The notes under the pieces are model-generated. The model saw nothing but the letters and a program-made list of their open reading frames with translations. It was not told the DNA's origin and ran no database searches. A program made the position numbers and the translations under genes. This document shows, in pieces, positions 17,497 through 45,628 of a DNA stretch of 64,000 nt (positions are counted from its first letter, which is position 1; every line of letters begins with the position of its first letter). The stretch is from Octopus vulgaris (taxonomy: Eukaryota): NCBI GenBank assembly GCA_951406725.2, contig OX597831.1:58280001-58344000 (forward strand), given 5' to 3'.

Positions 17497-17541
17497 TTAC
17501 TTTTGACAATCTTTTTCCAAAGAGTGAAACCGGTAAAGTAA
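17497..17541 (+). ncRNA. Degenerate hammerhead with U3-A8 core
   Basis: ttactt-TTGACAA-tcttt ttcc aaagagt-GAAA-ccgg-TA-aagtaa. Confidence 0.55.
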
Positions 17542-17709
17542 ATAAACATCTTTTAAAATTGCATTTTTAAACCTTCTTTCGTATATATATATATATTGCA
17601 TTACTGATATTTTGAAACTTCTTCACCGTTTCTCGTACTGTTAGCGTTCCGTATTTCAGTCGAGTGTGTTAGTATTAATGTGGTAACATCGTAGATTTCG
17701 TCTTGGTAT

Positions 17710-17787
17710 ATGTTTGGCTGAAGAAGGTAAAGCAAAATATGGGTGAGAGACATATCTTGCAAAACCTGAAACCTGCAGGTACCACAT
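17710..17787 (+). ncRNA. Type I hammerhead ribozyme in (TA)n-flanked insert 17596-17978
   Basis: tgg-CTGAAGA-aggt...acct-GAAA-cctgcagg-TA-cca; long stem II (gcaaaatatg/catatcttgc); palindromic stem III. Confidence 0.78.
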
Positions 17788-18569
17788 TATCCATTTTCCG
17801 GGTGTTTCATCTTTCAGATGTTCTCCCTGGAGGTAAGACGGTTTTTTTCCCCTATTTTGTTGCACACACGCATTTTTGCTAATACATACGCGGTGAAGCT
17901 ACACATTAGCGTATATTTTTACGTTCGCTATTTCCAGTAAATATCGGTACTTAGTTGTGCCATTTATTTACTAATTTGTATATATATATATATATATATA
18001 TATATATATATATATATGTATGTGTATTATATATGTATACCTAGTATATATATATATATATGTGTGTGTGAACCACTATGTGTATACATTTTTATGGGAC
18101 ACCCTATATATATATATATATATATATATATATATATATGTATATATTTGTATTCTTCTGTGCTGTTTCTTTGTCGCTGTGTCTATATATATTAAAGTGA
18201 CTACACAAAAGTGTATATTTTGCAGAGCATATTTCTTTTTTCGAATCTGGTGATTCACTTAGAGGCTAAACAGGGTGCACCGCACACGCACACAGATATA
18301 CACGCATGCCCACACATACACACCTGCAGCCATACGTGCACACACACACACATTCCCTCCCCTTGCTTTTACTGTTTCACATTTAACATATATGAATCTG
18401 ATAATACACTAAATCGCTACCCGTTTGTTTTCGATCGAGATAATCTGCACCACAGTACATAGGAATGGTTCGTGGAATGACTATAAAGGAGTTAATAACA
18501 CCACGAAACAAATGTTATTTGCATTTGGTCACACTAGGTAGTGTGTGACCAATACACTTTTTCATTCCA

Positions 18570-18745
18570 AATTAAAACAACTGAATATCAAATTAAAATA
18601 AACGAATTTGATATTACAATAAATGAATCTCGAATTAAAACAACTGAACTATGGATTTAAATTATATGAACTTAATTCATATCAGATGAACTTTTATTTG
18701 AAATAAATGAATACCAATTTATAATATATGAAATTGTTATTAAAA
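18570..18745. repeat. Degenerate 21-bp minisatellite (about 8 units)
   Basis: Recurrent aaattaaaacaactgaa-like units at about 21-bp spacing. Confidence 0.6.
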
Positions 18746-18794
18746 TAACTAGCGCGAAATTATAAAAATTACTATTTGATTTGAATCACATTTT

Positions 18795-18847
18795 GTATTG
18801 CTTCAGCAATACTTATACTAGAATTGGAACGATACAGAGAAGTTTTT
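18795..18847 (+). pseudogene. U6: 3'-truncated U6 snRNA copy (5' stem-loop to ACAGAGA box)
   Basis: gtattgc ttca gcaatac hairpin, then TATACTAGAATTGGAACGATACAGAGAAG (one mismatch to canonical U6), then TTTTT. Confidence 0.85.
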
Positions 18848-41836: not shown

Positions 41837-43452
41837 CATTGACCCATTTCAATGGTTCTTTCTAGCAATGGATTTGCTCGTATATGAGAAAGCAGCTAAG
41901 ATATATATATATATGTATACATGCATACATCCTCCATCCATCTCTCTCTCTCCACACACACACATACACACATACACACACACACACACACACACACACA
42001 CACACACACAGTTATCCTAAATTCAATGAGTCAGGAAAAAACTGGCACTAGCATACTATTATTATTAATATTAGGGCTACTAAAATTTTAAAAGCGAAGG
42101 CTTTTACCCACCGTTCTCATGAGCGCAAGTATGCATTAGCGGACTTGAGGATTGCATTATAAATATAAGTGACCTCTACATGATCAGCCTGCGTCTATGC
42201 TAGTTTTCGAGTTATTTATTGATATGTTCATTATACCAGCTGTACAGTTAAAAGAGACCATCAAACTATGCTCATTAAAAATTTACTTGTATCTATGCTA
42301 TTGGGAGGAATGTTTTTCAGCTAAGCTAATGAAAATCCGAACTACACAAGCTTTTACATTAATGGAAATCAGGGAAGTAATCTATACGACCTTAAGTTGG
42401 CGTATTCTTTTGGAGGTATTAGGGATCAGCATACAGCTAATACTATATTTTCTTTTTGGGCTTTCGTTTCAGTTTTTACATCTCCAAGGCCGATTGACCG
42501 GGTATAACGCTTTTGGGCCTTCATTGGTGAAGAACCCGAGTTACAGTGTTCCACTAATCTATTACTGATGAGTACTGAATCCGACTCTCTATTTCTGGCA
42601 TGATTTCCGCCATGAAACCATTTAGTAAAATGGCTATCATGCGACTAAAATATTATATAAATAACACACACACACACACACACACACACACACACACACA
42701 CACACACACACACACACACACATATATATATATATATACACACACAGAGTAAACATATACATACATGAAACACAGATATACACATATGTGTATGTAGATT
42801 GATCACTCTTCTTGTTGCTACGCTTGTTGAGGAGGTAGATATAGAGGCGTGTATTTGTTTCCTATGCAGAACATTGAAATAAGGTTACGTTCCTTCTGCT
42901 ATACTATTAATATTTTTAATCACACACCAAAGCCTGCATATATTAAATATTCTATGTTTAAATCTCGTCGGGATGATTAAATGAAATACCAATGTTATGC
43001 TAATATTGATTAAATCGACTAAAAATTAGTCTATTTCTCTAATCGAAATGAAAATTCCTTCAGTTACGTACTTCTATTGTCTGTATTCATGACTTGCTAA
43101 GTTCGATTTTAAAGCAGTGAATTGGTTGAGTCGTTCTGCCTCTTTGCGCTCTGAGTTCAAATGCTGCTGAGGTCAACTTTTTCTTCTATGCTTACGCTAT
43201 CGATTAATAAAGTAGTAGTTCAATACTCGGTCGGCTCTTTTCTTTTGCTTCCTGGGGCAAAAAAAAAGAAGTTAATAATCAGTCAGTCTTGTTACAGGTC
43301 AACCCTGATGGAAATGAAATACAACCAAAAATGTTTCACTCGTGACTAACCCGTCTTTTTTTCTATCCAAAACTAAAATGTCAAATATGTCCTTTTAAAA
43401 GACGGTAGGGCATAATTTGAAGTGAAGGGATGAAAAATTATTTTATACTAAA

Positions 43453-43855
43453 CTAGCAGTATCGCCCGGCGTTGCTCGGGTTTGTAAGGGAAATAACTAT
43501 ATAAGCATTTTTAGAGAGTTATAGCCCCCAAAAAATAGCAAAAAAATGCATTAAAAATGGAAAAAAAATGATCGTAATTTTTTTTTTAAATCGTTGACTC
43601 ATCGTAGACATTTTTAGAGAGTTACTTCCCTAATATAATAGCGAAAAAATGCATTAAAATGGAAAAAAATGATGGTAAATTTTTTTAAAATCATAGACTC
43701 ATCGTAGACGCGCGCTAATACCCAGAAGGGCTCGATATGAATCATGACTATAAGATACCCGCTTTTGGTTACACTGCACCGCAAAATGTGGGAGTAGTTA
43801 GGAATCTAAATCGTAGGAGACAGACAGCACACAACCTCACTTTTATATATAAAGA
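43453..43855 (-). mobile_element. Non-autonomous Helitron
   Basis: Minus strand: A|TCTTTATATATAAAA start, 3' hairpin cccgagcaacgccggg then CTAG|T; internal about 105-bp duplication. Confidence 0.8.
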
Positions 43856-44227
43856 TTAGCCGTAATCCAGAAGACCTACATTAAAAAAATTCCCATTGCA
43901 TGATCGTAGCGTCTTTTTCGTCAAGCACAATGAACTTCAGATCATATAACAGTTTTGATGGGTTTTGGCGGTTTCAAAATTGAGATTTAGCAGTTTGATC
44001 GACAGAATGAATTCTTAGGCGAGAAGTGTATGCGTAAGCAAGCATATATATGTGTGTGTATGTATACATATGTATGTATATATACATATAAATATGCATA
44101 TATATGTGTGTGTATGTATACGTATAGATATATATACGTATATATATTCGTATGTATATGTATATATATATATATATATATATATATATATATATATATA
44201 TATATATATATATGTATATATATATAA

Positions 44228-44688
44228 GGATGAAAAGGGGCACACAAGTTGATATATATGAAAAAACAAGTCAAGATAGAAAATGCTAAAATGATTTTAT
44301 AAAGAACATATCAGTACCGGTTTCGGTCATTTGAGACCTTTTCAACTGTAACGATTAAATAATTAAATTTAGAAAAATTAAACGAAATTTTTTAAAAAGA
44401 ATATTTGCATAGTGTTAAAATATAAGAGGCATTTTCCTTGTTCTGCCTTTCTCTGTCTCTCTTGAACCCACAAGAGTAAATAAAAGAGATAGAGAAAAGC
44501 AGAAACAAGGAAAATGCCTCTTATATTTGAACACTATACAAATATTCTTTCAAAAATACTTTTCTTTTAATTTTTCTAAATTTAATTTTTTTAATTGTTA
44601 CAGTTGAAAAGGTATCAAATGACCGAAACCGGTACTGATATGATCTTTATAAAATTATTTTAGCATTTTCTATCTTGACTTGTTTTTT
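44228..44688. mobile_element. Foldback insert (about 200-bp arms) with two inverted U3-A8 hammerheads (44312-44348 minus, 44601-44637 plus)
   Basis: 44261-44462 inverted at 44484-44688; same family as 32045-32280. Confidence 0.8.
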
Positions 44689-45570
44689 ATATATATATAT
44701 ATATATATATATATATATATATATATATATATATATATATATGTATGTATGTATGTATATTAAACAGCCGAAATCTGCGATGATGAATCGGTTTCTGACT
44801 GAAGAACGAAGGCTTTGAATGACCCGTCTGTCTCTTATGTTCGTCCCTTCGTGTATTTCACGTTATTTATATATGTAAAGGTTTTTATATATATATATAT
44901 ATATATATATATATATATATATATATATGTATATATAGGTATATATATGTATATATATGTATATATATATATATATATATATATATATATATATATATAT
45001 ATATATATATATACTCAATATTCATTTTGGGGGATTAATCGATATGCGGGTATTCTATTTCAGTTAATACAAATATAACGTAATGGGTATATCTGACAGT
45101 AAACTCATGGTATCAGTTTGCCCGTCACGAAATAACACTTAAAGGATATAACCTAAATTACCAGCTATATAATGTATTTCATTAATTATATCATACTTTA
45201 GTTAATACTTACATTTATTAAATATGAAGGAACTACACGTGTTTCAGTATTGGAAGATTACAATATATATACATATACACAACTGTATACCTATATATAT
45301 ATATATACATATATATATATATATATATATATATATATATATATATATATATATATATATTATATACTTCTTCTCCCCTACAATAAAACTACGAAACTTC
45401 GTTTCGGCAGTACTGTTTTGTGACTCACGTGGTGGGATTTTGGAGGGAGATACAAATTCGCCTGTCTATATAAATGTGGATATGCTAGTGGTCTTTTGTA
45501 TCTTTCAATGTCGCTTGGTCGAATATATAAAGGGTAAGTTTTTCTTGGCATTTCTAGATTTATGGGAAAT

Positions 45571-45628
45571 ATTATGTTGATAAGGAAATGAACTTCACGA
45601 TTCTAATCCAGAAACGGTCGTCCATAAT
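45571..45628 (+). ncRNA. Hammerhead with U3-A8 core (diverged)
   Basis: attatg-TTGATAA-gga...tcca-GAAA-cggtcg-TC-cataat; 6-bp stem I. Confidence 0.62.

What the first reader, a model, noticed from the sequence alone, without database searches (positions are those of the whole stretch)
17497..45628. Compensatory U3-A8 catalytic core in four independent families
Seen: cores UUGACAA (17503), UUGAAAA (32132, 44312, 44601), UUGAUAA (38342) and UUGAUAA (45577), each followed by stem II, GAAA, a short stem III and a closing stem I. Established: C3 and G8 form a Watson-Crick pair in the active hammerhead, and U3-A8 is a tolerated but uncommon natural variant. Inference: the double change recurring across families indicates selection for catalysis, and standard CUGANGA searches would miss these motifs.
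Basis: partly seen in the sequence, partly recalled or inferred. Interest (0 to 1): 0.8.

Follow-up and report, generated by a model that had tools for sequence, protein, structure and literature searches.

The report
Penelope hammerheads swap their core pair
The six motifs are real hammerhead-ribozyme sequences at the ends of Penelope-type jumping genes; their U3-A8 core is a published variant that arose about twice here, not four times, but the same genome also holds multi-copy G3-C8 and A3-U8 versions, which likely means the self-cutting shape is still under selection.

Summary
All six U3-A8 type I hammerhead motifs are present (three on the minus strand). They end Penelope-like retrotransposons inserted in (TA)n: family B belongs to an intact RT + GIY-YIG element, C is linked to an ORF remnant, A and D look non-autonomous. 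U3-A8 is fixed in these families (5,872 genome matches against about 105 for each mismatch), but it is published, also for Penelope elements. 'Four independent families' is overstated: B and C sit in one element clade, A likely too; only D is a second origin (a 70%-identical relative has C3-G8). The window also holds seven canonical C3-G8 motifs, and C3-G8 is the commonest core in evenly spaced genome samples (14 of 24). The stronger result lies beyond the finding: the same clade includes a G3-C8 family (4,781 matches, 96 of the first 100 G3-C8) and an A3-U8 family (46 of 57; a decayed copy is in the window), and Penelope elements of other organisms show all four Watson-Crick pairs (26 of 26 sense-strand hits paired). 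This supports selection on the active fold; cleavage is untested. The scan noted U3-A8/G3-C8 swaps before in a phage.

The parts
17497..17541 (+). Family A type I hammerhead, U3-A8 (U3 17503, predicted cut after 17535), helix III ACCGGU
   Evidence: 495 exact-pattern copies, control 0
17019..17581 (+). 3' part of family A element (internally repetitive, no ORF found; likely non-autonomous), ends at (TA)n
32129..32172 (-). Family B hammerhead, U3-A8 (U3 32166, predicted cut after 32135)
32029..32308 (-). 5'-truncated 3' end of the family B Penelope-like element, about 90% identical to the 3' end of the full element in L129
38340..38381 (-). Family C hammerhead, U3-A8 (U3 38375); helix III palindrome broken in this copy
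   Evidence: 72 strict-pattern copies
38250..38615 (.). Family C inverted pair of 3' ends between two (TA)n runs; the + arm has lost stem II
44309..44351 (-). Family B hammerhead, U3-A8 (U3 44345), left arm of an inverted pair
44598..44640 (+). Family B hammerhead, U3-A8 (U3 44604), right arm of the inverted pair 44227-44687
45571..45628 (+). Family D hammerhead, U3-A8 (U3 45577, predicted cut after 45622), long loop II, 8-nt helix III palindrome with G-U pairs
45360..45810 (+). Family D element between (TA)n runs; related to C3-G8 tandem-repeat (retrozyme-like) families
37309..38079 (-). Decayed Penelope-like ORF remnant (family J), 53-61% identical to the family B protein
36932..36969 (-). 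Decayed family J hammerhead; the family core is A3-U8 (46 of 57 pattern matches)
1085..1164 (+). Canonical C3-G8 type I hammerhead with long stem II
4414..4461 (-). Canonical C3-G8 hammerhead, one of two direct copies 296 bp apart
4710..4757 (-). Canonical C3-G8 hammerhead, second copy
16778..16816 (+). Canonical C3-G8 minimal hammerhead
17712..17787 (+). Canonical C3-G8 hammerhead, 10-nt helix III palindrome, in the element next to family A
26175..26219 (+). Canonical C3-G8 hammerhead
31884..31922 (-). Canonical C3-G8 minimal hammerhead, same family as 16784

Best explanation
The motifs are type I hammerhead sequences in the 3' repeats of Penelope-like retrotransposons and their non-coding derivatives, which likely cut the element's RNA as dimers, and whose 3-8 core pair is likely kept by selection on the active fold while its letters swap. 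Shown: the anatomy, the link to RT + GIY-YIG elements (B, C, J, L), the (TA)n insertion sites, the inverted 5'-truncated copies, the four pair types and their places on the tree. Inferred: C3-G8 changed once to U3-A8 at the base of this genome's B/C/J/L clade, then to G3-C8 in L and A3-U8 in J; D and the K-like group changed to U3-A8 separately. Inferred from the published model: two motifs (tandem repeats or two RNAs) pair their palindromic helix III and cut after H17 to release or circularise the element RNA, perhaps with help of the element's protein. Most genomic copies are truncated and decay neutrally; selection would act on the source elements.
For: Intact 784-aa ORF with RVT_1 and GIY-YIG matches about 700 bp upstream of the B motif, same strand, in L129, and the same layout in L126-L128. 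C motifs lie 540-920 bp behind EN-domain remnants in 3 loci used (L212, L225, L232); the L 3' region is continuous with an ORF 66% identical to B. Helix III is self-complementary in 12 of 13 window motifs and in D varies only among forms that still pair (GATC 15, GTGC 8, GTAC 2, GGTC 1, plus 3 damaged, of 29). G3-C8: 4,781 matches, control 0, 96 of the first 100 listed. A3-U8: 46 of 57. Tree of 34 proteins: B, B', L, J, C one clade (98/86) inside C3-G8 elements of other organisms (97/91); elsewhere U3-A8 rows are sisters of C3-G8 rows (L296/L305 100/100, L330/L298 100/99, L277+L303/L276 97/91). In 80 Penelope loci from metagenomes, 26 of 26 sense-strand hits (24 loci) are Watson-Crick at 3-8: 19 C-G, 5 U-A, 1 A-U, 1 G-C. 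D's relative L375 has C3-G8 and a compensated stem I pair; so does the K pair. Published: C3-G8 pair forms in the active fold (PMC3884650, passages), single mutants are dead and C3G/G8C partly rescues a Penelope hammerhead (PMC11167929, passages), dimers cleave weakly (PMC4209133, main text).
Against: No cleavage data for any of these RNAs. Monomer folds are not more stable than shuffles for the five window motifs folded. In J stem II is only 2 bp, and 11 of 57 copies are not A3-U8, 4 of them C3-U8, which may be a mismatched sub-lineage. 5 of 24 hits in the evenly spaced sample have mismatched cores. C-to-U and G-to-A are both transitions toward AT in a 35% GC region, so U3-A8 is the easiest swap. 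A and D could not be tied to an ORF. The clade of this genome rests on short, broken rows (C: 13% of columns). In vitro, hammerhead mutants did not affect insertion by an Anolis Penelope element and no RNA ends were seen at the cut site (PMC11167929, passages); some Penelope clades thrive without hammerheads (PMC8557442, passages).
Confidence: 0.75

Rival explanations
1. One reading: four families each gained U3-A8 independently under selection for catalysis.
For: The four families differ in stems and flanks; D is unrelated to A, B and C (z below 1.5). A's link to B is weak (z 3.8-3.9, includes the shared core letters) and A has no ORF to place it. On the tree C(U-A) and B(U-A) are separated by L and J, so two gains from another state are not excluded.
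Against: B and C fall in one clade of this genome (98/86) and share flank similarity (z 4.2-6.2); one gain at the base needs the fewest changes; A, B and C share the same helix III and cut-site letters.
Confidence: 0.12
2. The hammerheads are inherited relics or weakly needed structures; paired variants arose by drift through tolerated intermediates and spread with whichever source element was active, without selection on cleavage.
For: Copy counts only mirror source elements (single mismatches at about 1.3% each after control). Possible C3-U8 sub-lineage in J. Hammerhead mutants do not block insertion in vitro (PMC11167929); low activity of minimal motifs (PMC4209133).
Against: Drift would leave mismatched family majorities; 0 of 15 clusters and 0 of 26 sense-strand motifs of other organisms have one. 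G3-C8 and A3-U8 need transversions at both sites while U4 G5 A6 A9 G12 A13 A14 stay fixed.
Confidence: 0.1
3. The fold is selected, but for a non-catalytic job such as RNA dimerisation or binding by the element's protein.
For: Conserved palindromic helix III; the Anolis motif needs the protein to cut and cutting was not needed for insertion in vitro (PMC11167929, passages).
Against: The 3-8 pair is described as a feature of the active conformation (PMC3884650, passages), and the NUH site and catalytic letters are kept in all 13 window motifs.
Confidence: 0.1

Closest known systems
Minimal type I hammerheads in pLTRs of metazoan Penelope-like elements, including the U3-A8 variant of Schistosoma mansoni Cercyon (about 1,300 hits; Cervera and de la Pena 2014, PMC4209133; read: main text parts 1-3 of 4, supplement by term search)
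   Same: Type I topology, short palindromic helix III, position in the 3' repeat of RT + GIY-YIG elements, mostly single truncated copies, close inverted pairs, U3-A8 covariation.
   Different: That paper reports only U3-A8 as 3-8 variant in the text read; here G3-C8 and A3-U8 families occur in the same clade, and helix III is longer (6-10 nt palindromes).
Natural U3-A8 core covariation (Perreault et al. 2011, PMC3088659; read: section 8 and passages)
   Same: U3-A8 seen in several natural hammerheads and stated to be active in vitro.
   Different: Rare examples there; here the fixed state of families with hundreds to thousands of copies. G3-C8 and A3-U8 are not named in the section read (its figure could not be seen).
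Neptune/Nematis-type EN+ Penelope-like elements (Craig et al. 2021, PMC8557442; read: passages)
   Same: C-terminal GIY-YIG, DKG motif, CX4CX2C linker before the endonuclease, (TA)n targets, inverted 5'-truncated copies.
   Different: Neptune against Nematis was not resolved: no named reference proteins were in the tree.
Non-LTR retrozymes of animals (bioRxiv 10.64898/2026.07.22.740005; read: abstract, introduction, part of methods)
   Same: D's relative N forms 545-bp tandem arrays with one type I hammerhead per unit; one D locus has two copies 548 bp apart.
   Different: Most D copies fetched are single or inverted, not long arrays; circular RNA was not tested.

Membership tests
Type I hammerhead ribozyme | Core N3 U4 G5 A6 N7 N8 A9 ... 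G12 A13 A14 A15.1 ... U16.1 H17 with a 3-8 Watson-Crick pair | tested here: met
   All six motifs; the 3-8 pair is U-A, not the consensus C-G
Type I hammerhead ribozyme | Three helices, stem I open | tested here: met
   Stem I 4-6 of 6 pairs, stem II 3-5 bp, helix III only as an intermolecular palindrome; broken in the 38375 copy
Type I hammerhead ribozyme | Match to Rfam hammerhead models at gathering score | tested here: not met
   0 matches in the window; the seven canonical motifs are missed too, so the models do not cover this minimal type
Type I hammerhead ribozyme | Self-cleavage after H17 | not testable with these tools
   Needs an in vitro assay or raw RNA ends; only contigs were available
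EN+ Penelope-like element | Single ORF with RT and C-terminal GIY-YIG endonuclease | tested here: met
   Family B: RVT_1 34.1 bits (cut-off 29.6), GIY-YIG 22.4 bits (just under cut-off 22.6); remnants for C, J, L. Not met for A and D, where no linked ORF was found
EN+ Penelope-like element | Hammerhead in the 3' repeat, sense to the ORF; inverted 5'-truncated copy upstream | tested here: met
   L126-L129; inverted pairs in the window at 38250-38615 and 44227-44687
Neptune/Nematis clades | CX2-5CxxC linker between RT and EN | tested here: met
   CX4CX2C at residues 650-658 of the B protein; feature as given in PMC8557442
Neptune/Nematis clades | Placement with named reference RTs | not tested
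   No named references in the tree
Non-LTR retrozyme (family D) | Non-coding tandem units with one type I hammerhead each | tested here: inconclusive
   One two-copy D locus; long arrays only in the related C3-G8 family N
Non-LTR retrozyme (family D) | Circular RNA intermediate | not testable with these tools
   No raw RNA reads listed (one search was run for family B only)

The most novel reading that the evidence does not exclude
One retrotransposon clade in a single animal genome has run its hammerhead through all four Watson-Crick pairs at the catalytic 3-8 position (C-G to U-A, then G-C and A-U), with thousands of natural G3-C8 copies and an A3-U8 family, forms so far known from laboratory mutants; all cleave, which proves ongoing selection for self-cleavage in Penelope transposition and means standard searches miss a large share of animal hammerheads.
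Probability: 0.45. Interest if true: 0.62.

Novelty: new variant of a known kind. Interest (0 to 1): 0.42.

Why it matters
Why Penelope elements keep hammerheads is open: activity is low in vitro and was dispensable for insertion in the one reconstituted system. The 3-8 pair is a mark of the active fold, so its repeated compensated swaps on the element tree are a natural argument that cleavage is selected, and they supply natural, matched test pairs (B against L against J; D against L375). For annotation, about a quarter of paired motifs in the evenly spaced sample (5 of 19) are not C3-G8 and would be missed by CUGANGA descriptors. The U3-A8 observation alone is already in print and would rate low.

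Tried and rejected
Rfam scan: no match. Related Penelope loci in prokaryotic genome contigs and viral contigs: none. Apparent U3-G8 'mismatch families' were false parses: the true C3-G8 core lies further upstream with a long loop II. ORFs for A (loci L045, L048, L049, L176-L202, L385-L387) and D (L146-L175): only fragments on the wrong strand or side. The first tree was anchored on the B protein and is biased toward it; one search replaced it. Expression: no RNA holder listed on record as RNA; contigs of four runs from four organism labels show no listed difference between L129 positions 5105 and 5145, which cover the motif, but contigs cannot show ends. Hammerheads behind two further ORF remnants (L065, L391) were decayed or absent. 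Lunse et al. 2017 (PMC5785218) and Hammann et al. 2012 (PMC3334697) are not held. Genome-wide mismatch counts were rejected as proof of selection because copies are not independent. Genome-wide dominance of U3-A8, suggested, was rejected: that pattern was built on the window's helix III, and the unbiased sample gives 14 C-G, 3 U-A, 2 G-C, 5 mismatched.
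Full report
1. Observation. The window is AT-rich (35% GC), microsatellite-laden DNA of a 2.8-Gb genome (G000:C18:58280001-58344000); its repeat make-up recalls an octopus (recalled, not tested). All six motifs exist: U3 at 17503(+), 32166(-), 38375(-), 44345(-), 44604(+), 45577(+). Each reads stem I - U3 U G A N A8 A - stem II - GAAA - short palindrome - UH - stem I, a type I hammerhead layout. A scan that leaves positions 3 and 8 free finds 13 motifs in the window, 6 U3-A8 and 7 C3-G8, against about 0.65 in 20 shuffles. Rfam finds none. 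Monomer folds of five window motifs are not more stable than shuffles; helix III pairs only between two copies, and does so in 12 of 13 motifs.

2. What carries them. Family B (three window copies) is the 3' end of an autonomous Penelope-like element: L129 holds a 784-aa frame with RVT_1 and a GIY-YIG match just under cut-off, a DKG motif and a CX4CX2C linker, the hammerhead about 700 bp behind the stop on the same strand, an inverted truncated copy at the other end and (TA)n on both sides; L126-L128 repeat this. By the features given in PMC8557442 (passages) this is the Neptune/Nematis type; the two were not told apart. Family C motifs lie behind endonuclease remnants 43-47% identical to B in L212, L225 and L232. 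Family A (495 pattern matches) extends into a 2.5-kb repetitive unit without ORF and D (30 loci read) has no linked ORF; both are likely non-autonomous. All have a fixed 3' end at (TA)n and variable 5' ends.

3. With one helix III class, the genome holds 5,872 U3-A8, 40 C3-G8, 108 U3-G8 and 104 C3-A8 matches (reversed-pattern controls 40, 22, 34, 31). The mismatches listed are mostly single changes in U3-A8 families, about 1.3% each after control. This shows U3-A8 is the family state, but not selection, since copies inherit one source. The pattern was built on the window's families. In 85 evenly spaced 10-kb stretches (850 kb) there are 24 motifs against 1.0 in shuffles: 14 C-G, 3 U-A, 2 G-C, 5 mismatched. 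So C3-G8 remains the commonest core. Clustering 164 distinct motifs from all G000 loci (centre hits of L081-L125, fetched by core pattern, left out; positions 3 and 8 removed) gives 15 clusters of two or more, all with a paired majority (10 C-G, 4 U-A, 1 G-C) and 30 singletons, 8 of them mismatched; these loci are enriched for the families searched.

4. Independence. A tree of 34 proteins (35 given, L212 dropped by the tool; rows of broken copies with X at breaks; L107 and J rows labelled by family majority) puts B, B', L, J and C in one clade (98/86) inside C3-G8 elements of other organisms (97/91), as (C, ((L, B/B'), J)). One change to U3-A8 at its base is the simplest reading; C's row is short (13% of columns) and two rows elsewhere have very long branches. 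A resembles B weakly (z 3.8-3.9) and nothing else; D resembles none of A, B, C but matches C3-G8 families N and L413 (z 11-15), and L375, 70% identical to D over 374 bases, has C3-G8 and a compensated stem I pair. So the window shows about two origins, not four. A third occurs in the K/L395 group.

5. The stronger signal. The window's ORF remnant at 37309-38079(-) leads to a decayed motif at 36932-36969 whose family (J) has A3-U8 in 46 of 57 matches with both positions free; 4 are C3-U8, 3 G3-U8, 2 U3-U8, 2 differ at 8, and stem II is only 2 bp. Family L, not in the window, has G3-C8: 4,781 matches, control 0, 96 of the first 100 listed, 7-bp stem I, 5-bp stem II (z -2.94), 3' region continuous with an ORF 66% identical to B. 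In 80 Penelope loci from metagenome assemblies, 24 have sense-strand motifs; all 26 are paired at 3-8 (19 C-G, 5 U-A, 1 A-U, 1 G-C); 5 antisense hits include 2 mismatched (my notebook says 25, recounted here). A looser scan added four more C-G loci. U3-A8 rows are sisters of C3-G8 rows three times on well supported branches. D's helix III changes only among forms that still pair with themselves (26 of 29 copies).

6. Mechanism. Shown: anatomy, context, pair states, tree. From papers: the C3-G8 pair belongs to the active conformation (PMC3884650, passages); single mutants of an Anolis Penelope hammerhead are dead, C3G/G8C partly rescues, cleavage needs the element's protein, and insertion in vitro does not need cleavage (PMC11167929, passages); minimal Penelope hammerheads cut weakly as dimers and are proposed to release or circularise element RNA (PMC4209133, main text parts 1-3). 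Inferred: source elements need a cleavable fold, so only paired 3-8 states found new families; truncated copies then decay. Confidence 0.75. Rivals: drift without selection on cleavage (0.10), a non-catalytic structural role (0.10), four independent origins (0.12, a different question).

7. Novelty. Natural U3-A8 is published (PMC3088659, section 8) and was found in about 1,300 Schistosoma Penelope motifs (PMC4209133). I found no report of natural G3-C8 or A3-U8 families, or of cephalopod Penelope hammerheads, in searches and a term search of the PMC4209133 supplement (one file unreadable, figures not held); the most relevant papers (Lunse 2017, Hammann 2012) were not available, and the tolerance of all four pairs in vitro (Przybilski and Hammann 2007) is recalled, cited only second-hand in what I read. 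An earlier scan note (e1-5996897) names U3-A8 and G3-C8 swaps in a phage array; I did not test it. Verdict: observation confirmed, interpretation partly supported, new variant of a known kind, interest 0.42.

Noticed in passing
G000:C1:33099610-33105375 (L443) and C1:71597378-71603426: Arrays of 11-12 direct 545-bp units, each with a canonical hammerhead (family N): retrozyme-like, related to family D.
   Followed up: partly
L354, L357, L361, L364, L369/L370: Family L (G3-C8) copies often stand as fold-back pairs whose two hammerheads begin only 20-70 bp apart, i.e. the inversion point lies just 5' of the motif.
   Followed up: no
L385 (G000:C2:178201500-178208500): Family A forms a 2.55-kb unit made of internal 200-400 bp repeats, here as a direct tandem, with no ORF match.
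   Followed up: partly
L395:8667-9406 and L149: Further U3-A8 hammerheads (three copies in L395, one in L149) whose relatives (K family, L119, L138, L391) have C3-G8: a third origin in this genome.
   Followed up: partly
window 45823-46964: A 530-bp near-perfect inverted repeat (95%) right behind the D element, sharing D's 3' tail sequence.
   Followed up: no
window 8632-10632 (+): Broken non-LTR reverse-transcriptase-like reading frames behind an (AAT)n run (family recalled as RTE-like, not tested).
   Followed up: no
window 49288-51013: Two adjacent minisatellites, 34-bp x 29 and 52-bp x 14.
   Followed up: no
window 23099-24081: Tandem 184-187-bp copies of a dispersed SINE-like repeat also at 14072.
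   Followed up: no
window 19665-20580 (-) and 36168-36560 (-): Open frames resembling Tc1/mariner-type transposase remnants (by eye, not tested).
   Followed up: no
P0025, P0065, P0074, P0080, P0099: Penelope-type proteins 42-47% identical to family B are deposited under the names of bacterial gill symbionts, probably host DNA in those assemblies.
   Followed up: no
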